DNA from: a virus
DNA: 17,097 bases
Virus record (IMG/VR): IMGVR_UViG_3300035703_000547
Location: 1 to 17,097 of that record
Direction: 5' to 3' (one strand)
Within the stretch, counting starts at the first letter, position 1; each line of letters starts with the position of its first letter. A program made the translations under genes and the position numbers. This document shows, piece by piece, positions 1,620-14,138 of the stretch. The notes beneath the pieces are model-generated. The model was given only the letters and a program-made list of their open reading frames with translations, searched no databases and had not been told where the DNA came from.

Positions 1620-2361
1620 GCGAATAGTCGTAGTCTCGGACTTACAAGTCCCATACCATGACAGGGTTGCAACTCGTAACCTTGCTAGTTTCATCTCTAA
1701 GTTCAAGCCAGATCAAGTAGTCACCATTGGTGATGAGATCGATCTTCCACAGATCAGCAAGTGGGAGGAAGGGCGCATGGGCTCATATGCCCAGACCCTA
1801 GATGATGATCGTAACGAGGCTGTGCAGCTTCTCTGGGAGTTAGGCGTAACAGACTGCATCCGTAGCAATCACACAGATCGCTTATACAACATCATCATGG
1901 CTAAAGTCCCAGCCTTCGGTGCTTTGCCAGAGCTACGCTTTGAGAAGTTCATGAAGTTCGATGAGTTAGGGATTACCTTTCATAAGAATCCTATGCCTAT
2001 CGCACCTAACTGGATTGCAGTTCATGGAGACCACACACCCATCAAGCCACAGGGGGGCTTATCAGCCCTAGAAGCGGCTCGTAGGCATGGTAAGAATGTC
2101 ATCTCAGGTCATACCCACAGAGCAGGGCGTTCAGCCTTCTCAGAGGCTTCTGGAGGGCGTATAGGGCGTGTCCTACATGGTGTTGAGGTAGGCAATCTTA
2201 TGGACTTTAAGCAAGCTGCATACACCAAGGGTGTAGCCAATTGGCAGCAAGCCTTTGCCATCATCTATGTCAATAAGAGCAAGGTTCAAGTGGACTTAAT
2301 CCACATCGAGAAGGATGGCACATTCATTGTGTCTGGAAAGTCTTACGGTCGCGCCAGATAG
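1588..2361 (+). CDS. Calcineurin-like metallophosphoesterase
   Basis: The full ordered motif set is present: VVSDLQVPYHD (DxH), TIGDEID (GDxxD), RSNH (GNH-like), AVHGDH and SGHTHR (GHxH). The start is ambiguous: in-frame ATGs occur at 1588, 1597, 1603 and 1609. Confidence 0.9.
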   Translation: MAIMKMRMTIKRIVVVSDLQVPYHDRVATRNLASFISKFKPDQVVTIGDEIDLPQISKWEEGRMGSYAQTLDDDRNEAVQLLWELGVTDCIRSNHTDRLYNIIMAKVPAFGALPELRFEKFMKFDELGITFHKNPMPIAPNWIAVHGDHTPIKPQGGLSALEAARRHGKNVISGHTHRAGRSAFSEASGGRIGRVLHGVEVGNLMDFKQAAYTKGVANWQQAFAIIYVNKSKVQVDLIHIEKDGTFIVSGKSYGRAR

Positions 2362-2404
2362 GTCTAAATTTAGGTCTAAATCGTTATCGTTTCGTTATCT
2401 AAAT
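2359..2404. promoter_or_regulatory. Cluster of short direct repeats/palindromes in the largest intergenic region (candidate operator/iteron set)
   Basis: TAGGTCTAAAT occurs at 2359-2369 and 2371-2381 (12-bp period). This creates the perfect palindrome CTAAATTTAG at 2364-2373. TCGTTATC occurs at 2381-2388 and 2392-2399 (11-bp period). A third TCTAAAT lies at 2398-2404. Confidence 0.4.
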
Positions 2405-2480
2405 GTACTTGATTCGTCTGGGCTTTATGTCACACTAACTCTGTAAGCAACCAAGGGCGTTGCTACAGATAGGAAAGAAA

Positions 2481-2591
2481 ATGAACACAGAGACTCACCA
2501 GTTTATCCAAGATGTTTGTGAGATGTTTGACAATGGCAAGATTACAGCTTCAGAGCTTGCAGAGCTTTTGACATCAAAGCAGGTTGCATAA
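2481..2591 (+). CDS. Micro-ORF, hypothetical 36-aa protein (not in the ORF track)
   Basis: AGGAAAG at 2471-2477 precedes ATG 2481. The translation is MNTETHQFIQDVCEMFDNGKITASELAELLTSKQVA. A TAATG overlap couples it to the next ORF. Confidence 0.4.
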   Translation: MNTETHQFIQDVCEMFDNGKITASELAELLTSKQVA

Positions 2592-2740
2592 TGGCAAACA
2601 CAGACAAGTTGCTTCTTATCTGCATCTTGGGCATGGTTATTGGCTTCATTATCGTGATCATCGATGTTCAACGCACAGCCTATGACAAGGGCGTACGCGA
2701 TGGATACCATCGAGGTCGCAGCATCAAGGGGCAGGAATGA
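2591..2740 (+). CDS. Small single-pass membrane protein (49 aa, not in the ORF track)
   Basis: The translation is MANTDKLLLICILGMVIGFIIVIIDVQRTAYDKGVRDGYHRGRSIKGQE. It has one strong TM helix and a basic tail. It is coupled on both sides (TAATG upstream, ATGA downstream). Confidence 0.45.
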   Translation: MANTDKLLLICILGMVIGFIIVIIDVQRTAYDKGVRDGYHRGRSIKGQE

Positions 2741-3015
2741 GAGCCAGTGAGATCCTCTTATCAGCAACAGACACAATCCGCGAGCGTGGCTTATCATACG
2801 GTCACCCTTCAGATAACCTGCAACACACAGCGATGCTCCTCTCAGCATACTTACAGACACCGATACATGACTATCAAGTCGCAGGGATCATGGTGCTTGT
2901 TAAACTTGCGAGGACTAATCAGTCAGCCCAGCACATCGACAACTGGGTCGACCTATGCAGCTATGGCGCACTCGCAGGACAACTAGCAACCGAGGAGAAC
3001 GACCTTTATGTTTAA
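2737..3015 (+). CDS. Conserved phage protein, DUF6378-like
   Basis: The motif pattern is RERGLSYGHPSDNLQHTAMLLSAYL...VAGIMVLVKLAR...HIDNWVDLCSYGAL. This matches my memory of the R-x3-YG / K-L-x-R / D-x2-D-x2-Y signature of that small all-helical phage family. Confidence 0.7.
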   Translation: MRASEILLSATDTIRERGLSYGHPSDNLQHTAMLLSAYLQTPIHDYQVAGIMVLVKLARTNQSAQHIDNWVDLCSYGALAGQLATEENDLYV

Positions 3016-3661
3016 TTTAGCCGATTACGAGCCAGTTGAGGTGAGACTTGAAAAGTTTATTAAGGACTATCCATCATTCCGTATTGCAACAGAGCTTGAA
3101 GTGGTCGAGGCAACTCGATACATTGTTAAGGCTTATCTATTTAAGGATGCTAGCGATGGCGTTGCGTGGGCAACAGGCTACGCTGAGGAAACAGTTACTA
3201 GTCGCGGGGTTAATCAGACTTCAGCACTGGAGAATTGTGAGACTTCAGCGATCGGCAGGGCACTTGCAAATGCAGGTTATGCGCCTAAAGGAAAGAGACC
3301 AAGCCGCGAGGAAATGACTAAGGTTGTTGCTGCTAAGCCAGTCAAGCCACCTGTTCAAGAGGTTAAAGCAGATGATCAGGATTACTGGACTACTCCAGTG
3401 GGTCAATACAACAAGGTAGTTGATGCGCCTGTCACGCTTGACAAAGCAATGCAGACAGTAACCGCAATCATGGGAACACCTGAAGCAGTAGAAGCACCAA
3501 GCTGTGAGCATGGGCACATGCGCTTTAAGGAAGGCGAGAAGAACGGCAAGCCATGGGGCGGCTACTTCTGTGACACAGCAATCTCATCGGCACACAGATG
3601 CCCTACTCGCTGGTATCAATTGGTAGATGGCAAGTGGCAGCCTCAGAAGGCGTGGGCATAA
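3008..3661 (+). CDS. Possible Rad52/Sak-like single-strand annealing protein with a C-terminal Cys/His zinc module
   Basis: AWATGYAEETV...NQTSALENCETSAIGRALANAGY resembles the acidic-x-[ST][DS]A-x-x-RA-x3-G helix of Rad52-family annealases. The C-terminus, CEHGHMRFKEGEKNGKPWGGYFCDTAISSAHRC, looks like a topoisomerase-type zinc finger. The CDS call is firm; the function is tentative. Confidence 0.55.
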   Translation: MFNLADYEPVEVRLEKFIKDYPSFRIATELEVVEATRYIVKAYLFKDASDGVAWATGYAEETVTSRGVNQTSALENCETSAIGRALANAGYAPKGKRPSREEMTKVVAAKPVKPPVQEVKADDQDYWTTPVGQYNKVVDAPVTLDKAMQTVTAIMGTPEAVEAPSCEHGHMRFKEGEKNGKPWGGYFCDTAISSAHRCPTRWYQLVDGKWQPQKAWA

Positions 3662-3662
3662 C

Positions 3663-3863
3663 ATGGGCTTTGTAGAGTACTTTGATGAGACAACTGGTCA
3701 ATGGATTAACATTGAGGACATTCCTATGATTGACACAGTCAATTGCCAATTATGCAATGAGCCAACAATGGCGAAAGACATAATTGCTGAAATACTTGTA
3801 AAAGATGAGCAATTAATTGTAGGTGCGTGGCAGTGCCGCAAGTGTAAAGCAGTCAATGGCTAG
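3663..3863 (+). CDS. Small zinc-ribbon protein (66 aa)
   Basis: ATG 3663 lies 1 nt after the previous stop. I prefer it to the track start at 3627, which overlaps the upstream gene. There are two CxxC pairs (NCQLCN, QCRKCK). Confidence 0.6.
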   Translation: MGFVEYFDETTGQWINIEDIPMIDTVNCQLCNEPTMAKDIIAEILVKDEQLIVGAWQCRKCKAVNG

Positions 3864-4335
3864 TCAAGCAAGGAAACATAGAGGCTTCCGAACAGAACGC
3901 GTAGTCGCACAGTACCTATCGACTGTGTGGAGTGGTGCAACTGTTGGGAGAGGTAGTGGCAAGGATATTGTCAATGTACCGTTCGATGTTGAGGTCAAAG
4001 CCCGCGCTGGATTTCAACCTCTTGCCTACATTCGTCAATTGAAAGCTCGTACGGCTCTTTCGGGGGAATTGGGCTTTGGAGTGATTAGACTCAACGGACA
4101 AGGTGAAGATGCGCGTGAGTATGCCGCCATCATCCGTCTAGAGGATCTCTTGCCACTACTTATACTAAAGTACGGTCATCTTACTAGCGAACCCACAGAG
4201 GCAGACATTGACCGCTGCACAGGCTGTGGGTCTTACATGATACAGAGGTGCTTGACATGCCAGCCTACGACTACCGATGCACACAATGCGATCTTAGTCA
4301 AGAGATTACCCATGGATGGTACGACAGACCAATGA
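3856..4335 (+). CDS. PD-(D/E)xK nuclease, Holliday-junction resolvase (Hjc/VRR-NUC)-like, with a C-terminal CxxC-x7-CxxC knuckle
   Basis: The motifs are RTERVVAQYL ... GSGKDIVNVPFDVEVKAR (E ... D ... ExK). The C-terminal knuckle is RCTGCGSYMIQRCLTCQ. ATG 3856 gives an 8-nt overlap with the upstream gene and is preferred to track start 3823. Confidence 0.7.
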   Translation: MASQARKHRGFRTERVVAQYLSTVWSGATVGRGSGKDIVNVPFDVEVKARAGFQPLAYIRQLKARTALSGELGFGVIRLNGQGEDAREYAAIIRLEDLLPLLILKYGHLTSEPTEADIDRCTGCGSYMIQRCLTCQPTTTDAHNAILVKRLPMDGTTDQ

Positions 4336-4427
4336 TCCCATGCACATACTGTAATGAGCCTATGGTTAAGGTAATTGCAGCTAATCCAATTCACTTTAAG
4401 GGCAAAGGATGGGGCAAAGATGTTTAG
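4257..4427 (+). CDS. FmdB-family (CxxC_CxxC_SSSS-type) zinc-ribbon protein, 56 aa (not in the ORF track)
   Basis: The translation is MPAYDYRCTQCDLSQEITHGWYDRPMIPCTYCNEPMVKVIAANPIHFKGKGWGKDV. It has the hallmark MPxYxYxCxxC start, a second CxxC and an FKGxGW tail. It overlaps the 3' end of the nuclease gene by 79 nt in another frame. Confidence 0.7.
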   Translation: MPAYDYRCTQCDLSQEITHGWYDRPMIPCTYCNEPMVKVIAANPIHFKGKGWGKDV

Positions 4428-4713
4428 AGATCAATGTGTATTTAAGAAACGCAAGGGTGAGTGTTATCACCAAATAAAGCAAGAAATTAGGCGTTATGAA
4501 ATGCCTAAATGGCGTGGTAGAGCTATAAATCATGTTCATTATTTAAGAGAAACTGAACTGTGCAAAGGTAGGGTTGTAAAAACTGAGATTGCTCAAGTAC
4601 ACATTACGGGTACTGTTGTGGGCTTTCATTCTACTTATCGTAATGTGCTAAAACATGATTACTTTGAGATCGCTGGACAAACATCACGCCATGATTGGTA
4701 CAGTTTTAGATAA
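4420..4713 (+). CDS. Hypothetical basic protein (97 aa) in an AT-rich segment
   Basis: The ORF is open from 4375. ATG 4420 gives an 8-nt overlap with the FmdB-like gene. GC counted in one sampled 60-nt line (4441-4500) is about 35%, against about 47% in a typical structural-gene line. I recognise no family. Confidence 0.5.
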   Translation: MFRDQCVFKKRKGECYHQIKQEIRRYEMPKWRGRAINHVHYLRETELCKGRVVKTEIAQVHITGTVVGFHSTYRNVLKHDYFEIAGQTSRHDWYSFR

Positions 4714-4715
4714 AT

Positions 4716-4740
4716 AGTTATCCACAGAAGTTATCCACAG
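4716..4740. promoter_or_regulatory. Two tandem perfect DnaA-box consensus sequences (TTATCCACA)
   Basis: AGTTATCCACAG occurs at 4716-4727 and again at 4729-4740. The box cores lie at 4718-4726 and 4731-4739, in the same orientation with a 13-bp period. They sit 12 nt upstream of ATG 4752. Confidence 0.6.
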
Positions 4741-4751
4741 GGGGTAAAAAC

Positions 4752-5192
4752 ATGGCGACACGCCCAAGATTACACATGGTGCTTCCCATATATGGTACGC
4801 TAACACAGCAGAGCCTCTCAAAGGCTCACCGCGAGCCCCTTAGGGGCGTAGCTCGCGGGGTGCTAGTAGCTATTGGGATAGCTCTATGCATTATGCCTGA
4901 TGCAGGTGGATCTAAACCAATGCAATATGTAACTTATAAAGAGTATGCATTACATTTATTACATTATGATTATAAGCAAATGAAGTGCTTAGGTAAGCTC
5001 TATGGTAAAGAGAGTGCATGGAATCCTAAAGCTAATAATGGTTCACACTATGGAATACCACAAGGTAAGAGTGAGTGGCTTAAAGACCAAGATGGTTATG
5101 CTCAAGTAAGATGGGGCTTATCATATATAGAGCATAGATACTCAACTCCATGCAATGCTTACGATCATTGGAAGGCACACAATTGGCATTAG
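4752..5192 (+). CDS. Signal-anchored lysozyme-like/lytic transglycosylase-family protein (actinobacterial/APF-like C-terminal domain)
   Basis: The C-terminal domain is CLGKLYGKESAWNPKANNGSHYGIPQGKSEW...VRWGLSYIEHRYSTPCNAYDHWKAHNWH. This matches the remembered pattern C-L-x-x-L-x-x-ES-x-W-N-x-x-A-x-N...YGIPQ...WGL-x-YI-x-x-RY-x-x-PC-x-A-x-x-H...GWY. An N-terminal hydrophobic segment, GVLVAIGIALCIM, is present. GGGGG/SD lies upstream of ATG 4752. Alternative starts are ATG 4776 and GTG 4860. Confidence 0.72.
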   Translation: MATRPRLHMVLPIYGTLTQQSLSKAHREPLRGVARGVLVAIGIALCIMPDAGGSKPMQYVTYKEYALHLLHYDYKQMKCLGKLYGKESAWNPKANNGSHYGIPQGKSEWLKDQDGYAQVRWGLSYIEHRYSTPCNAYDHWKAHNWH

Positions 5193-5512
5193 ATAAGCTG
5201 AACTCAAGGCGCTATAGAGAACAGCGTGAACGAGTGTTCAAGCGTGATGGTCGTGTATGCCAGATCTGTGGTACAGATGAGGGCGAGATGCACATCGATC
5301 ATGTGATACCTCGTAAGGTAGGTGGAGATCACTCATTAGATAATCTCAGAGTGTTATGTAAGTCATGCAACCTGCGCAAGGGTGCGCTCAATGATGGGGT
5401 TTTTTTAGCACGAGCGGCTACCCCCCCTGTCTTTTCAAGCAATATCTCCCCGATGCAGTCCGAGACGATGCTGGACAGTCCTTTTAAGACCCGACCTAAT
5501 CCGAGTCAATGA
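5150..5512 (+). CDS. HNH endonuclease (packaging-associated type)
   Basis: CQICGTDEGEMHIDHVIPRKVGGDHSLDNLRVLCKSCNLRKG contains CxxC, H-x-D-H, N and CxxCN. It lies immediately upstream of the terminase gene. The start is uncertain: ATG 5150 overlaps the upstream gene by 43 nt, and in-frame TTG/CTG codons follow. Confidence 0.9.
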   Translation: MQCLRSLEGTQLALDKLNSRRYREQRERVFKRDGRVCQICGTDEGEMHIDHVIPRKVGGDHSLDNLRVLCKSCNLRKGALNDGVFLARAATPPVFSSNISPMQSETMLDSPFKTRPNPSQ

Positions 5513-6933
5513 CAACTAAGCCTAAAAAGAGCAAAGCCCTACGAGGGGCAACTAAGCCAAGGCTTCACAGTCCACTTCTCAAGGGCGAAAACAAGCTGCA
5601 AGATGTAAAAGATCTATGCAAGATTGTGAACATGGATCTAATGCCATGGCAGGAGTTCGTTCTTAAGGACATGCTCACTGTGGACAAGAAGGGCATGTGG
5701 ATCCGTAAGACAAACCTGATCCTTGTAGCCAGACAGAATGGCAAGACCCACCTAGCCCGCATGCTCATCCTTGCGCACCTGATCAAGTGGAATACCAATG
5801 TGCTAATCATGAGCTCTAATCGCTCTATGGCACTAGACACCTTCAGACAAGTAACTCACCTATTGGAGACCAATGACCACCTCAAAGGATTCGTTAAGCA
5901 GATCAGACACGCCAACGGCACTGAAAGCATTGAGATGCTCTCTGGAGCAAGGCTTGATGTTGTTGCAGCAACTAGAGACGGAAGTCGAGGTCGCTCAGTC
6001 AACGGACTTCTCTACATCGATGAAGTCCGAGAGATCACAGAAGATGGATTCAGAGCTGCAACTCCTACAACTAGAGCTCACCCAAACAGTCAGACACTTC
6101 TTACCTCGAATGCGGGAGATGCTTTCAGCACTGTACTCAATGACCTACGGGAACGAGCCATCGACTACCCACCAAAGTCATTCGGATTCTACGAATACTC
6201 AGCACCTCAATACTGCAAGATAGACGATCGCAATGCATGGGCTATGGCTAACCCCTCAATGGGGTACACAATTACCGAGGATGCGATTGAAGAGGCTATT
6301 GCTACTTCGCCGATTGAAAACACTCGTACTGAGACTCTTTGCCAATGGATCGACTCCCTAAGTAGCCCATGGCCTCATGGCATTCTAGAGGAGACCAGCG
6401 ATAGCACTCTGGAGATGGCTGTAGGTGCTTATACAGTATTCGGCTTTGATGTTAGCCCTTCAAGGCGCAATGGGTCTCTTATTGCCGGTCAATTGCTCCC
6501 AGATGGTCGGATCGGTATCGGTATCTTAGAGACTTACAGCTCGCAGGTAGCCATCGATGAGTTAAAGATGGCGGCAAGTATAAAGGCATGGTGTGACATA
6601 TATAAGCCTCGCATTGTCTGCTTTGACAAGTACGCCACCCAGACTATTGCAGATCGGTTAATGAATAGTGGTGTTGTCTGCGAAGATGTCAGTGGGCAGC
6701 AGTTCTACAAAGCTTGTGGAGATCTCTTAGAAGGCTTGGTCAATCATCGAGTAGTTCACAATGGACAGGCAGAGTTCATTCAGCAGATGAACAACTGTGC
6801 AGCTAAGGTGAACGATTCTGCTTGGCGCATCATTAAGCGTAAGTCAGCAGGTGACATCTCTGCTCCAATTGGCATTGCCATGGCGGTAAGCAAGTTAATG
6901 ATCCCTCAGCCTAAGCCACAGATTTACACTTAG
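5509..6933 (+). CDS. terL: Terminase large subunit
   Basis: Walker A-like VARQNGKTHL, Walker B plus catalytic Glu LLYIDEVRE, and a C-terminal RNase-H-like nuclease region (FGFDVSPS). The product is 474 aa. An ATGA overlap links it to the HNH gene, and the portal gene follows. Confidence 0.93.
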   Translation: MTTKPKKSKALRGATKPRLHSPLLKGENKLQDVKDLCKIVNMDLMPWQEFVLKDMLTVDKKGMWIRKTNLILVARQNGKTHLARMLILAHLIKWNTNVLIMSSNRSMALDTFRQVTHLLETNDHLKGFVKQIRHANGTESIEMLSGARLDVVAATRDGSRGRSVNGLLYIDEVREITEDGFRAATPTTRAHPNSQTLLTSNAGDAFSTVLNDLRERAIDYPPKSFGFYEYSAPQYCKIDDRNAWAMANPSMGYTITEDAIEEAIATSPIENTRTETLCQWIDSLSSPWPHGILEETSDSTLEMAVGAYTVFGFDVSPSRRNGSLIAGQLLPDGRIGIGILETYSSQVAIDELKMAASIKAWCDIYKPRIVCFDKYATQTIADRLMNSGVVCEDVSGQQFYKACGDLLEGLVNHRVVHNGQAEFIQQMNNCAAKVNDSAWRIIKRKSAGDISAPIGIAMAVSKLMIPQPKPQIYT

Positions 6934-12243: not shown

Positions 12244-14138
12244 GCAATGTAGCAATTAACATCGCAGCAGAGTTCACAGGTAAAAAGGCTTTCAAGCAAG
12301 CAGAGACTTCGACAGATAAACTTAGCAAGAATGTCAAAGGTCTTGCTAAGAGTTTGCTTGCTGTTTACAGCGCACAGAAGATTCTCTCTTACGCAAAGGC
12401 ATCTGTTAAGGCTTTTGCAGAAGATGACAAGGCAGCCACAGCATTAGGTACAACTCTTAAAAATCTTGGGCTTGCTTACGGATCAAACATCGGCACAGTC
12501 AACGGCTACATTAACCGCCTTGAGATGCAGACAGGTGTGCTTGATGACGAGCTTCGCCCTGCTATGGATCGATTCCTTCGTGCCACATTATCAGTTACTA
12601 AGTCTCAAGAATTACTCAACCTTGCTCTTGACATTTCAGCAGGTACAGGCAAAAGCCTTACTCAGGTTTCACAAAGTTTACAGAAGGCTTACCTTGGTCA
12701 GACTCAGGCAATTGGTCGCTTAGGTGTAGGACTTACCAAGGCTGAACTTACAAGCTCATCCTTTGAGGAGATTCAGCTACGCTTAACAACACTCTTTGCC
12801 GGTCAAGCAACAGCGGCAGCTGATACCTATGCAGGTTCGCTTGCTAAGTTAACTGTTGCGGGCAACAACGCCAAAGAGACTATTGGTGAAGGTCTAGTCG
12901 ATGCCATTAAGACCGCATCTGGATCTGAAACAATCGATCCGCTTATCAAGGGCATCGATAGAATTGCTAATGCTATTGCTGGTCTTGCGCGTGAAACAGG
13001 CGAGTTTATTGCCATCACTAAATCGATCTTTGACTTTGATCTATTCGCTAAAGACCTAAACGCCTTCAAGGGTATGGGCAACATCTCGATGACTATCTCT
13101 GGTCAAGTCGATAACTCAGCTGCTAAGGCAGCACAAAAGACACAGACTAAAGCAGCAAAGGATTCTGCTAAGGCACAGAAGGAAAGCCTCAAGCTTGCTA
13201 AGGCTAGAGCAGTCTTTGACTTACAAAAGATCCAGATCGAGGCAGCCCTCAAGGGTAAAATCTCAGAGGAAGATAAGATCCGCTTAAAGTTAATGCAAGC
13301 GATCGAGGAAGAAAACCTCACTAATGTTGAGAAGTATCAGAAGGCATTAGAGAAGGCACAGGAAAAGACAAAAGAGTTAACAGATCTTCTAGCCACAGTT
13401 AAGACATTAGAACTCAAAGATCCTTTCGGTGCTTGGTCGGTTGATCCTCTCACTGCATCAATCAACGCTTTGACTGCTTCGATGTTCTCTGTTGGTACAC
13501 AGATTCAGGCTAATGGTCGAGAGTGGTCATCCTTTGCTAACTCTGTAGCGAACACAGTCATTAGACCTAACCTCAGCGAATGGTCATCATCTTTCAGCGC
13601 AGCGGCAGCATCAGCATCAGCAGCAGTCGGTTCGGCTAACGCGGCACTGGCATCAAGTACAGCAGCATCATCAACCGCAGCGGCAGCCGCAGCTAAGGCA
13701 AGTGCAGAAGCGATCGCGGCGGCTAACAAAGCAACAGCGGACGCAATAGCCGCAGCTGAAAAAGCACAAGGCGAAGCGTTATCTAAACTCAAAGCAGATG
13801 CAGCCGCTACAACGGCATCTATTAAAGCAGATCAAGAAAAGGCAGCCGCAGATGCACAAGCAGCCGCGGATGCTCTAGATAAGCAAATAGAGGCAACGCT
13901 GGCGGCTATTCGAGCTAAGGCAGCACAGGAAGCAATCGCTGCTTCATCCGTTACTGGCAATGTTGATACAACAACAATTGCAGGAATCGTTGCTGCTTCT
14001 GGTGGCACTGTATCGAGTGGATCAAATGTTGAGATTACTGTAAACACAGGCATAGGAGATCCTAACGCTATCGCTGAGCAGATCCAGAAAGTCCTAGAAG
14101 ATGCTTACCAACGCGGATCATTGTTGAGGGCAGAATGA
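12240..14138 (+). CDS. Tail tape measure protein
   Basis: The product is 632 aa, long, helical and rich in Ala/Lys/Glu, with an extended Ala-rich low-complexity stretch (about nt 13590-13930). It lies after the chaperone genes and is ATGA-coupled on both sides. Confidence 0.85.
   Translation: MSNVAINIAAEFTGKKAFKQAETSTDKLSKNVKGLAKSLLAVYSAQKILSYAKASVKAFAEDDKAATALGTTLKNLGLAYGSNIGTVNGYINRLEMQTGVLDDELRPAMDRFLRATLSVTKSQELLNLALDISAGTGKSLTQVSQSLQKAYLGQTQAIGRLGVGLTKAELTSSSFEEIQLRLTTLFAGQATAAADTYAGSLAKLTVAGNNAKETIGEGLVDAIKTASGSETIDPLIKGIDRIANAIAGLARETGEFIAITKSIFDFDLFAKDLNAFKGMGNISMTISGQVDNSAAKAAQKTQTKAAKDSAKAQKESLKLAKARAVFDLQKIQIEAALKGKISEEDKIRLKLMQAIEEENLTNVEKYQKALEKAQEKTKELTDLLATVKTLELKDPFGAWSVDPLTASINALTASMFSVGTQIQANGREWSSFANSVANTVIRPNLSEWSSSFSAAAASASAAVGSANAALASSTAASSTAAAAAAKASAEAIAAANKATADAIAAAEKAQGEALSKLKADAAATTASIKADQEKAAADAQAAADALDKQIEATLAAIRAKAAQEAIAASSVTGNVDTTTIAGIVAASGGTVSSGSNVEITVNTGIGDPNAIAEQIQKVLEDAYQRGSLLRAE

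What the first reader, a model, noticed from the sequence alone, without database searches (positions are those of the whole stretch)
4716..4740. Two perfect tandem DnaA boxes in a phage that encodes no recognisable replication initiator
The 12-mer AGTTATCCACAG occurs twice, 13 bp apart and in the same orientation. Each copy contains the exact 9-mer TTATCCACA, the canonical high-affinity DnaA-box consensus. The chance of two perfect 9/9 boxes falling together in a 38-bp intergenic spacer is very low.

I could recognise no polymerase, primase, helicase, Rep/O/P-type initiator or iteron-binding protein in the genome. Tandem DnaA boxes are a known feature of DnaA-dependent plasmid and P1-type origins.

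The pair lies at the edge of an AT-rich segment. It sits 12 nt upstream of a gene whose first 36 or so codons are packed with dyad symmetries.

Possible roles are recruitment of host DnaA as the phage origin, DnaA-dependent transcriptional control of the downstream lysin/packaging operon, or DnaA titration.
Basis: partly seen in the sequence, partly recalled or inferred. Interest (0 to 1): 0.62.

Follow-up and report, generated by a model that had tools for sequence, protein, structure and literature searches.

The report
Host DnaA boxes before phage packaging genes
Two perfect binding sites for the bacterial replication starter protein DnaA sit at a fixed spot just before the DNA-packaging genes of a very abundant family of tiny freshwater phages that have no replication genes, and they most likely tie a phage promoter to the host's DnaA rather than act as the phage's replication origin.

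Summary
AGTTATCCACAG occurs at 4716-4727 and 4729-4740, and these are the only exact TTATCCACA copies in this complete 17.1-kb cos phage.

The pair is conserved in 23 of 25 close relatives. In 113 relatives chosen without reference to the boxes, every one has at least one box. Their substitutions follow TTATNCACA, and the 11-mer equals E. coli oriC boxes R1 and R4. No phage gene encodes a DnaA DNA-binding domain or a replication initiator; the phage has only an annealing protein and a resolvase.

The boxes are the upstream part of a conserved ~150-bp module:
- DnaA boxes
- a GACACGCC motif
- a promoter-like TTGAC / TAnnnT element
- a covarying stem-loop

This module overlies the 5' end of the transglycosylase gene, about 0.7 kb before the right cos end.

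An origin role is disfavoured. There is no AT-rich unwinding element, the GC-skew maximum falls here, and one complete close relative has no DnaA box at all.

Best reading, at about 0.4: host DnaA controls the promoter or read-through into the HNH-terminase late operon. Nothing has been tested at the bench. Earlier notes of this scan describe DnaA-box arrays in other phages.

The parts
4716..4727 (+). DnaA box 1 (9-mer TTATCCACA at 4718-4726, within the 12-mer AGTTATCCACAG)
   Evidence: Invariant in 23 of 25 close relatives.
4729..4740 (+). DnaA box 2 (9-mer at 4731-4739), 13 bp after box 1 and in the same orientation
   Evidence: The 11-mer GTTATCCACAG is identical to E. coli oriC R1 and R4.
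4741..4751 (+). G-run and A-tract (GGGGGTAAAAAC) that serves as the Shine-Dalgarno region of the ATG at 4752. Family consensus after box 2 is GGnGnTAAAAACCTGTGG.
4757..4768 (+). Conserved GACACGCCCAAG motif with an unknown reader. Also present next to promoters in unrelated phages L110 and L151.
4783..4801 (+). Promoter-like element. TTCCCA stands where relatives have TTGACA, followed by 7 nt and then the extended -10-like TGGTACGCT (hexamer TACGCT at 4796-4801).
   Evidence: Across 65 dereplicated relatives the conserved positions are TTGAC and T-A-n-n-n-T (TACGCT, TAGCAT, TATGCT, TACCAT, TACGAT). The element is read in different reading frames in different subfamilies. No transcript start was mapped.
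4811..4827 (+). Stem-loop 1 (GAGCC-TCTCAAA-GGCTC), specific to the window's subfamily
4829..4858 (+). Stem-loop 2: outer stem CCGCGAGC/GCTCGCGG enclosing the inner stem CCCC-TTA-GGGG. Conserved across the whole family with compensatory changes.
   Evidence: 25 cells with a change on both sides against 6.0 +/- 1.9 in shuffles (0 of 500 shuffles as high); slid controls are much lower.
4752..5192 (+). Signal-anchored lytic transglycosylase gene. Its long basic N-terminal tail is encoded by the cis-module.
   Evidence: phrog_12661 transglycosylase. The frame is kept open through the module: 20 of 185 sequences have a stop in the ORF frame, against 185 and 172 of 185 in the other two frames.
5150..5512 (+). 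HNH endonuclease gene. The ORF runs across the cos site.
   Evidence: PF01844, E = 5.9e-14.
5422..5434 (.). Inferred cohesive end (about 13 nt, CCCCCCTGTCTTT). Right-end contigs stop at 5421 and left-end contigs start near 5435.
5509..6933 (+). Large terminase, the first gene of the left arm
   Evidence: phrog_9, E = 1.2e-63.
4375..4713 (+). Orphan ORF upstream of the boxes, absent from relatives. Homology with relatives starts at about 4709.
   Evidence: no family match.
4248..4427 (+). FmdB-family zinc-ribbon gene, the usual upstream neighbour of the boxes in relatives
   Evidence: TIGR02605, E = 2.4e-10; PF09723; C-terminal FKGKGFY/FKGTGWG ends seen.
3008..3661 (+). Core early protein: an ERF/Rad52/Sak3-like single-strand annealing protein with a C-terminal zinc ribbon
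3823..4335 (+). RusA-like / PD-(D/E)xK-type junction resolvase candidate
   Evidence: phrog_244, E = 3.6e-07.

Best explanation
The two 9-mers are binding sites for the host's DnaA protein. They form the upstream part of a conserved ~150-bp control module:
- a DnaA-box cluster
- a GACACGCC motif
- a promoter-like TTGAC / extended -10 element
- a covarying stem-loop

The module is laid over the start of the transglycosylase gene, about 0.7 kb before the right cos end. On the circularised genome this is where the co-directional early genes run into the transglycosylase-HNH-(cos)-terminase-structural operon.

The most likely function is that bound DnaA sets the activity of the adjacent promoter and/or the amount of read-through into that late operon. 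Packaging-gene expression would then be coupled to the host's DnaA status.

Shown here: the sites, their conservation, their DnaA-like degeneracy, their fixed placement before a conserved promoter-like element, and the absence of a phage-encoded reader of the DnaA type.

Inferred: that DnaA binds, that the TAnnnT element is a working promoter, and the sign of the effect (activation, repression or roadblock).
For: 1. The sites are exact and are the only ones in the genome. The same holds for two other complete genomes of the family.
2. The pair is invariant in 23 of 25 close relatives, while flanking DNA is 75-85% identical and the upstream gene is replaced by at least 4 unrelated sequences.
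3. In 113 distinct relatives picked by the downstream hairpin, not by the boxes:
   - all have at least 1 box and 105 have at least 2;
   - among 172 tandem boxes, position 5 varies (C 148, A 21, G 3) and position 2 less so (T 161, C 10), while positions 4 and 6-9 never vary. This is the TTATNCACA / TTWTNCACA degeneracy (consensus as quoted in PMC5835720);
   - boxes also occur inverted and as a third copy next to the promoter-like element.
4. GTTATCCACAG equals E. coli R1 and R4.
5. No Bac_DnaA_C domain is found in six frames of the window or of five related records.
6. Downstream there is a family-wide TTGAC...TAnnnT element whose conserved positions ignore the reading frame.
7. In unrelated larger phages the same tandem pair lies 51-52 nt before canonical TTGACT-N17-TAGAAT and TTGCAT-N17-TATACT promoters. 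One 38.7-kb phage has three such pairs.
8. Precedents exist for DnaA as a transcription factor at promoters with high-affinity boxes (nrdAB, dnaA) and for host DnaA acting on lambda transcription (PMC8203912, PMC3985674).
Against:
- The TTGAC element is only 7 nt from the -10-like hexamer, which is not a standard -35 spacing. A -35 at 17-19 nt is good only in some relatives.
- The promoter-like element lies inside an ORF that is kept open, so a transcript from it would lack the long N-terminus.
- Helical phasing between the boxes and the hexamer is not significant (p about 0.14).
- The host is only inferred to be an actinobacterium. Classical actinobacterial boxes prefer TTGTCCACA (my own knowledge).
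- One complete relative does without the boxes, so any control they exert is dispensable.
Confidence: 0.42

Rival explanations
1. The box pair is the phage's replication origin or helicase-loading site. Host DnaA bound here opens or loads DnaB on the phage DNA, perhaps helped by transcription from the adjacent promoter (an R-loop, ColE1/pBR322-like). This would replace the initiator the phage lacks.
For: - There is no initiator, helicase, primase or polymerase in the window or in a second complete genome. The only DNA-metabolism proteins are an annealing protein, a resolvase, HNH and the terminase.
- A single infecting genome needs some way to start a first round of replication.
- This is the only DnaA-box cluster in three complete genomes.
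- The cultured look-alike Arthrobacter phage Decurro carries an annotated O-like initiator and has no DnaA boxes.
- A promoter-like element and a stable hairpin lie next to the boxes.
Against: - The complete close relative G006 (15,534 bp, terminal repeats, same early gene set) has no TTATNCACA on either strand, yet keeps the promoter-like element and the hairpin.
- There is no AT-rich unwinding element: 0-150 nt downstream is 50-58% GC. The AT trough at +200 to +250 is explained by amino-acid composition (GC2 0.25, GC3 0.31).
- At most two trio-like triplets follow box 2.
- The detrended cumulative GC-skew maximum, which is terminus-like, lies at the pair/cos region in three genomes.
- Another phage carries three such pairs.
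Confidence: 0.15
2. The repeats are read by a phage-encoded or other host protein, not by DnaA. Candidates are the zinc-ribbon proteins encoded just upstream, or the factor that reads the neighbouring GACACGCC motif. The match to the DnaA box would then be convergence or mimicry.
For: - The module contains further conserved motifs with unknown readers: GACACGCC, TTGAC at an odd spacing, and CTGAGCAGGACTTTT.
- A run of small Cys-ribbon proteins, including an FmdB-type one, is encoded directly upstream.
- Box 2 and a downstream CCTGTGG form an inverted repeat, CCACAGG-N9-CCTGTGG, in many relatives.
Against: - All nine positions of the direct boxes are constrained, in the DnaA pattern and not merely CCACAG.
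- The 11-mer is identical to R1/R4.
- The same tandem pair occurs in unrelated phages with different gene sets.
- No protein of the window matches a DNA-binding family that would explain it.
Confidence: 0.2
3. The boxes act on the host rather than on the phage. As the phage genome multiplies, the high-affinity sites soak up DnaA (datA-like titration) or recycle ADP-DnaA (DARS-like). This would shut off or deregulate host chromosome initiation.
For: - Two consensus boxes per genome, multiplied by the burst-size copy number, could matter in very small cells.
- ColE1 carries a DARS with three boxes, and datA has two consensus boxes plus weaker ones (PMC5835720).
- Many relatives have the layout direct, direct, inverted-partial, which loosely recalls DARS1.
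Against: - The window has no inverted box. E. coli DARS1 has a 5-nt head-to-head gap, against 11-13 nt in the relatives.
- No IHF-type site was identified.
- Titration does not explain the fixed placement before the promoter-like element in every relative.
Confidence: 0.1
4. The conserved 25-mer has no binding function of its own. It is a recombination boundary shared between mosaic modules, or a chance tandem duplication.
For: Homology between the window and its relatives starts exactly at about 4709, just before box 1. At least four unrelated sequences abut it upstream.
Against: - The chance of a repeat unit containing the exact DnaA consensus is about 3e-5 (my estimate: 8 possible windows out of 4^9).
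- The boxes are maintained in distant subfamilies with different flanks, numbers and orientations, and with the DnaA-type degeneracy.
Confidence: 0.03

Closest known systems
High-affinity DnaA boxes R1 and R4 of E. coli oriC
   Same: The 11-mer GTTATCCACAG is identical. The tolerated substitutions follow TTATNCACA.
   Different: Here there are only two boxes, in tandem with a 13-bp period, inside or just before a phage gene. There is no adjacent AT-rich unwinding element, and the pair sits at the GC-skew maximum.
DnaA-regulated promoters (E. coli nrdAB and dnaA; host DnaA acting at lambda pR/pO)
   Same: High-affinity boxes lie within about 100 bp of a promoter. Lambda is a precedent for host DnaA modulating phage transcription (PMC8203912, PMC3985674).
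   Different: The boxes lie 55-85 nt upstream of the putative -10 rather than overlapping or downstream of it. The promoter is unverified and lies inside an ORF. The sign of regulation is unknown. Lambda has its own initiator proteins O and P; this phage has none.
P1 oriR and iteron-plasmid origins with tandem DnaA boxes
   Different: Those origins need a Rep initiator, iterons and an AT-rich region. No Rep gene or adjacent AT-rich region is present here, and a boxless complete relative exists.
Basal unwinding system of bacterial origins (two tandem DnaA boxes + GC cluster + DnaA-trios + AT-rich DNA)
   Same: Two co-oriented boxes are followed by a G-rich cluster and a short A-rich tract (GGGGG TAA AAA).
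   Different: There are at most one or two trio-like triplets, followed by GC-rich conserved motifs instead of an AT-rich region.
DARS1 / ColE1 DARS (DnaA-reactivating sequences)
   Same: Both have a tandem pair with a 12-13-bp period. Many relatives also have an inverted partial box.
   Different: DARS1 has a full head-to-head box 5 nt away. The window has none, and relatives have a degenerate one 11-13 nt away.
Arthrobacter cluster AN phages (e.g. Decurro, 15.5 kb) and Curtobacterium phage Penoan
   Same: These are the closest cultured genome plan: about 15 kb, a protease-capsid fusion, HNH at the right end and the terminase at the left end. Distant TerL and capsid homologues.
   Different: They have about 60-68% GC, no DnaA-box cluster, and Decurro has an annotated O-like initiator.

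Membership tests
DnaA box (TTATNCACA / TTWTNCACA) | 9-mer matching the consensus | tested here: met
   Two exact TTATCCACA copies at 4718 and 4731.
DnaA box (TTATNCACA / TTWTNCACA) | Variation among homologous sites follows the known degeneracy: position 5 free, CACA fixed | tested here: met
   In 172 boxes from 113 independently chosen relatives, position 5 is C/A/G = 148/21/3 and positions 4 and 6-9 are invariant.
DnaA box (TTATNCACA / TTWTNCACA) | Flanks as in proven high-affinity boxes | tested here: met
   GTTATCCACAG is found twice in the MG1655 oriC region, at R1 and R4.
DnaA box (TTATNCACA / TTWTNCACA) | Bound by DnaA | not testable with these tools
   Needs EMSA or footprinting. The host itself is only inferred.
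DnaA-dependent replication origin (oriC / BUS type) | AT-rich unwinding element next to the boxes | tested here: not met
   GC is 0.50-0.58 in the 150 nt downstream across 63 relatives. The AT trough at +200 to +250 tracks amino-acid composition.
DnaA-dependent replication origin (oriC / BUS type) | Run of three or more DnaA-trios (5'-TAG/TAA) after the proximal box | tested here: not met
   The window reads GGGGG TAA AAA CAT. The family consensus is GGnGnTAAAAACCTGTGG.
DnaA-dependent replication origin (oriC / BUS type) | Strand-composition switch of origin type (cumulative GC-skew minimum) | tested here: not met
   The detrended maximum lies 100-500 nt from the pair in three complete genomes. 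This is weak evidence in a 17-kb phage.
DnaA-dependent replication origin (oriC / BUS type) | Indispensable in relatives with the same replication gene set | tested here: not met
   The complete relative G006 has no TTATNCACA at all.
DnaA-dependent replication origin (oriC / BUS type) | Supports autonomous replication | not testable with these tools
   Needs a cloning or ori-trap experiment.
Iteron/Rep origin with auxiliary DnaA boxes (P1 oriR, F, pSC101 type) | Cognate Rep initiator gene and iterons | tested here: not met
   No Rep, O or P-like family in any ORF. The core unknown protein is annealing-protein-like.
DnaA-regulated promoter | Boxes at a conserved place next to a promoter across relatives | tested here: met
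   All relatives that carry the pair have a box cluster 30-100 nt upstream of the conserved TTGAC / TAnnnT element. Canonical promoters lie 51-52 nt after the same pair in L110 and L151.
DnaA-regulated promoter | A mapped transcription start at that promoter | not testable with these tools
There is no Rfam match.
DnaA-regulated promoter | Face-of-helix phasing between boxes and promoter | tested here: inconclusive
   R = 0.58 at a 10.5-bp period over six arrangement classes; random sets reach this in 14% of trials.
DARS core | Head-to-head box pair about 5 nt apart plus a tandem third box | tested here: not met
   E. coli DARS1 reads direct, inverted, inverted with 5- and 3-nt gaps. The window has no inverted box within 60 nt.

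The most novel reading that the evidence does not exclude
These phages carry no regulator or replication gene of their own for the early-to-late switch. The idea is that they use the host initiator as a genome-copy counter. At low copy number, DnaA saturates the two high-affinity boxes at the head of the late operon and holds back the promoter or read-through. As phage DNA multiplies in a very small cell, the limited DnaA pool is titrated away and the HNH-terminase-structural operon switches on. This would be an initiator-titration timer that couples packaging to replication. It would be the functional counterpart of clamp-coupled late transcription in T4 and Mu, but built entirely from a host protein and 25 bp of DNA.
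Probability: 0.12. Interest if true: 0.8.

Novelty: new variant of a known kind. Interest (0 to 1): 0.6.

Why it matters
Phages of about 15-17 kb form a distinct size peak in lake viromes (PMC6802176), and this family alone gave more than 600 contigs in one scan. They encode no replication initiator and no obvious transcription regulator, so how they time and start their cycle is an open question.

A conserved host-DnaA docking module gives that question a concrete 25-bp handle. It sits at the junction between the early genes and the packaging operon. It can be tested with gel shifts, reporter fusions and box mutations.

The work also separates two ideas that are usually conflated when DnaA boxes are seen in a phage. 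Here the comparative data argue against 'origin' and for 'control site'.

Tried and rejected
- **Nucleotide search of GenBank phages** with 3800-5600: no match.
- **Host by prophage relatives.** The genome-contig scan gave one 3.3-kb contig binned with a Terrimicrobiaceae MAG. I treat this as binning noise. 'relatives' is not available for virus records.
- **Weak -35 compensated by a proximal DnaA box.** Not supported: promoters with the proximal box have, if anything, more -35 matches.
- **Helical phasing** of the pair relative to the -10-like hexamer: not significant.
- **AT-rich trough 200-250 nt downstream as an unwinding element.** Rejected, because it is driven by second codon positions of a conserved Lys/Tyr-rich protein motif.
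- **DARS-like layout.** The window lacks the inverted box.
- **Rfam:** nothing for the stem-loops.
- **Sigma-70 consensus scan:** fewer hits than in shuffles (16 against 25.4). E. coli-type promoter scans are therefore uninformative here.
- **TTGAC-N8-TAnnnT elsewhere in the genome:** one chance-level hit on the minus strand.
- **PDB fold search for the 217-aa core protein:** no significant hit. The viral library resolved it.
- **Cultured relatives Decurro and Penoan:** no box cluster, so they are no ready laboratory model.

Full report
**Observation**

The 12-mer AGTTATCCACAG stands at 4716-4727 and 4729-4740 on the + strand. The exact DnaA-box 9-mer TTATCCACA occurs in the 17,097-base window only at 4718 and 4731. 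Dinucleotide shuffles give a mean of 0.20 copies, and two copies anywhere appear in 2 of 200 shuffles. One-mismatch copies at 2297, 5679-, 11852 and 15199- are at chance level. The window is the whole assembly, with direct terminal repeats, rated complete. The pair fills most of the 38-bp gap between an orphan ORF (stop at 4713) and the ATG at 4752.

**What the genome is**

All genes lie on the + strand. In order:
- endolysin-like 673-1101
- metallophosphoesterase 1588-2361
- DUF6378 protein 2737-3015
- a 217-aa core protein 3008-3661
- resolvase-like 3823-4335
- FmdB-type zinc ribbon 4248-4427
- orphan ORF 4375-4713
- the boxes
- signal-anchored transglycosylase 4752-5192
- HNH 5150-5512
- large terminase 5509-6933, portal, protease-capsid fusion, tail genes

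No polymerase, primase, helicase or initiator family matches any ORF. The 217-aa protein is present throughout the family at 23-90% identity. It gave no PDB match. Its model matches ERF, Rad52/22, Sak3 and RecT-type annealing proteins in the viral structure library. A second complete genome (L312, 16.6 kb) has the same minimal set.

Distant terminase and capsid homologues are almost all from actinophages. The cultured phages closest in genome plan are the 15.5-kb Arthrobacter cluster AN phages. The host is therefore probably a freshwater actinobacterium, but this is an inference. The family fits the roughly 15-kb 'miniphage' peak reported for lakes (PMC6802176).

**Physical ends**

Dozens of related contigs begin about 75 nt before the terminase start. 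Dozens of others end about 690-760 nt after the box pair. Right-end contigs stop at ...GGCTAC (window 5421) and left-end contigs start near 5435. The 13 nt between them (CCCCCCTGTCTTT) appear only in contigs that read through. I read this as a cos site with a roughly 13-nt overhang that is lost in library end-repair. The boxes are thus about 0.7 kb inside the right end. On the circular form they lie just before the transglycosylase-HNH-cos-terminase run.

**Conservation**

Among 25 close relatives (terminase 93-98% identical) that reach the junction:
- 23 have the identical pair. The only variation is the base after box 1 (G, A, C or deleted, giving a 12- or 13-bp period).
- Flanking DNA is 75-85% identical, and the upstream gene is replaced by at least four unrelated sequences. 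Homology starts at about 4709.
- One relative (L055) has an inverted box plus a TTATGCACA next to the promoter-like element.
- One relative (L040) has none.

Most belong to a much broader, diverged set of contigs of 17 kb or less with the pair at the same distance from the end.

To avoid circularity I also collected relatives by the downstream hairpin sequence alone. Of 113 distinct upstream regions, all have at least one box with at most one mismatch, and 105 have two to four. In the 172 tandem boxes:
- position 5 is C/A/G = 148/21/3;
- position 2 is T/C = 161/10;
- positions 4 and 6-9 never change.

That is the TTATNCACA / TTWTNCACA pattern of DnaA boxes (consensus quoted in PMC5835720). Arrangements differ between subfamilies: a tandem pair at three or four distances, an extra direct box 14 nt before TTGAC, or inverted boxes. 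This is how a binding-site cluster evolves, not how a coding repeat evolves.

The 11-mer GTTATCCACAG is the sequence of both R1 and R4 in E. coli oriC. No Bac_DnaA_C domain is encoded by the window or by five related records. I put this at about 0.75.

**The module around the boxes**

Downstream of the pair the family shares several elements:
- GGnGnTAAAAACCTGTGG, which includes an inverted half-box;
- a GACACGC(C/T)CAAG motif;
- a strongly conserved TTGAC(A/T);
- 7 nt later, a hexamer that keeps T-A-n-n-n-T (TACGCT, TAGCAT, TATGCT, TACCAT, TACGAT), often preceded by G or TG.

In the window the hexamer is TACGCT at 4796-4801 within TGGTACGCT. TTCCCA replaces TTGACA.

About 25 nt further on lies a stem-loop (window 4829-4858) with compensatory changes. 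There are 25 cells changed on both sides against 6.0 +/- 1.9 in shuffles, with 0 of 500 shuffles as high, and slid controls are far lower. Rfam has nothing for it.

Unexpectedly, the transglycosylase reading frame is open through the whole module. Stops occur in the ORF frame in 20 of 185 distinct sequences, against 185 and 172 of 185 in the other two frames. In many subfamilies the ATG lies just before box 1 (ATG..AGT TAT CCA CAG GAG TTA TCC ACA; L312). In the window's subfamily a Shine-Dalgarno sequence plus ATG follows box 2.

Conservation is nevertheless at the DNA level, for three reasons:
- The 13-bp period puts the two boxes in different frames.
- The -10-like element is read in two different frames in different subfamilies (129 against 55 sequences).
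- The stem covaries through non-synonymous changes.

The cis-module is therefore embedded in the long basic N-terminal tail of the gene.

**Origin or control site?**

For an origin:
- The phage has no initiator.
- This is the only box cluster in three complete genomes.
- The cultured look-alike Decurro has an annotated O-like initiator and no boxes.

Against an origin:
1. The 150 nt after the boxes are 50-58% GC in 63 dereplicated relatives. The AT trough at +200 to +250 coincides with a conserved Lys/Tyr-rich protein motif and is lowest at second codon positions (GC2 0.25, GC3 0.31).
2. At most two trio-like triplets follow box 2.
3. The detrended cumulative GC-skew maximum, not the minimum, lies within a few hundred bases of the pair in all three complete genomes. 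This is weak evidence in a small phage.
4. Record G006 is decisive for indispensability. It is 15,534 bp with direct terminal repeats, is rated 100% complete, and has a terminase 95% identical and the same early genes. It has no TTATNCACA on either strand and only three chance-level one-mismatch sites. It still keeps GACACGCC, TTGACA-N7-TACGCT and the hairpin.
5. A different 38.7-kb phage (L151) carries three such tandem pairs plus single boxes, 14 hits against 4.95 expected. One of its pairs lies 51 nt before TTGACT-N17-TAGAAT in a divergent control region. L110 has the pair 52 nt before TTGCAT-N17-TATACT, with the same GCGACACGCC motif between them.

Several pairs per genome, each before a promoter, look like regulation rather than a unique origin.

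I therefore rank the readings as follows:
- DnaA-dependent control of the promoter or read-through at the head of the late operon: about 0.42.
- A non-DnaA reader: 0.2.
- An origin or helicase-loading role: 0.15.
- Titration or DARS-like action on host DnaA: 0.1. E. coli DARS1 reads direct-inverted-inverted with 5- and 3-nt gaps, and the window has no inverted box.
- A bare recombination boundary or chance: 0.03.

**Limits**

- The TTGAC element is 7 nt from the hexamer, which is not a -35 spacing. A -35 at 17-19 nt is good in only some relatives and does not trade off against a proximal box.
- Helical phasing is not significant.
- The host is inferred, not known.
- The sign of any DnaA effect is unknown.

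**Comparison with what is known**

DnaA is an established transcription factor at promoters with high-affinity boxes (dnaA, nrdAB). Host DnaA also stimulates lambda transcription near its origin (PMC8203912, PMC3985674). Tandem DnaA boxes also flank P1 and plasmid origins, but always together with a Rep protein (my own knowledge).

I found no paper describing a conserved DnaA-box module in initiator-less miniphages. A negative literature search is weak evidence.

Earlier notes of this scan describe related cases, which I used as leads only:
- DnaA-box arrays next to cos ends, terminase genes or capsid promoters in other phages;
- a pair accompanied by an orphan DnaA domain IV;
- AAGTTATCCACAG boxes upstream of promoters in candidate-phyla-radiation bacteria;
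- another roughly 15-kb genome with a 'DnaA-box spacer' after its early module.

I classify the finding as a new variant of a known kind: host DnaA sites used by a mobile replicon, here as a family-wide, dispensable control module rather than an origin.

Noticed in passing
window 5400-5450: This looks like the cos site. Many related contigs end at ...TTTTTTTAGCACNNNNGGCTAC (window 5421) and many others start near 5435. The 13 nt in between (CCCCCCTGTCTTT) are seen only in read-through contigs, which suggests a roughly 13-nt cohesive end lost in end-repair. The HNH ORF (5150-5512) crosses it, so the full ORF exists only on circular or concatemeric DNA.
   Followed up: partly
window 4811-4858 (and alignment A2): There are two stem-loops inside the coding sequence. 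The second (4829-4858) is conserved across the whole family with compensatory, partly non-synonymous changes. It lies about 25 nt after the -10-like hexamer. In most subfamilies a short upstream CTCGC could pair alternatively with its 5' arm. Whether it acts as RNA or DNA is unknown.
   Followed up: partly
window 4714-4860; L312:11686-12174: The transglycosylase frame is kept open across the boxes, the promoter-like element and the hairpin. Start codons lie either just before box 1 or just after box 2, depending on subfamily. Long and short protein forms are possible (in-frame GTG at 4860).
   Followed up: partly
L318 (G006, whole 15,534-bp genome): This complete close relative has no DnaA box anywhere but has an intact promoter-like element and hairpin. 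It is a natural 'box deletion' for comparison.
   Followed up: yes
L151:980-1460 and 12960-13900; L110:7200-7700: Unrelated larger phages (38.7 and 27.9 kb contigs) carry the same tandem pair before canonical sigma-70-type promoters. They share two further motifs with this family, GCGACACGCC (also inverted as GGCGTGTCGCC directly before a -35) and CTGAGCAGGACTTTT. This hints at a shared host-lineage control vocabulary.
   Followed up: partly
window 3008-3661: The family's universal 200-230-aa early protein, of unknown function by sequence, models as an ERF/Rad52/Sak3-like annealing protein with a C-terminal CxHGH...C...C zinc ribbon. Precomputed Pfam family PF27148 is not in the local library.
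   Followed up: yes
window 4375-4713 vs relatives: The mosaic breakpoint lies exactly at the boxes. This genome has an extra low-GC orphan gene between the FmdB-type gene and the boxes. Most relatives have the FmdB-type gene ending ...FKGKGFYSTDK* directly before box 1.
   Followed up: partly
window 2361-2482: This is the largest non-coding gap, with direct repeats (TAGGTCTAAAT x2, TCGTTATC x2). The detrended GC-skew minimum of three genomes falls 3-5 kb upstream of the boxes, at or before the start of the early region (window ~200, i.e. about 2 kb upstream of this gap). The gap is an untested alternative early promoter or origin.
   Followed up: no
L086, L096, L098, L120, L171, L175, L177: These other viral contigs contain dense clusters of 4-8 DnaA boxes in both orientations, resembling oriC or plasmid origins. 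They are unrelated to this family.
   Followed up: no
window 4900-5050 and +200 to +250 in 63 relatives: There is a family-wide AT-rich trough (mean GC 0.31) inside the transglycosylase gene. It coincides with the conserved YKLYAH..KE(F/Y).C protein motif, so it is compositional rather than an unwinding element.
   Followed up: yes
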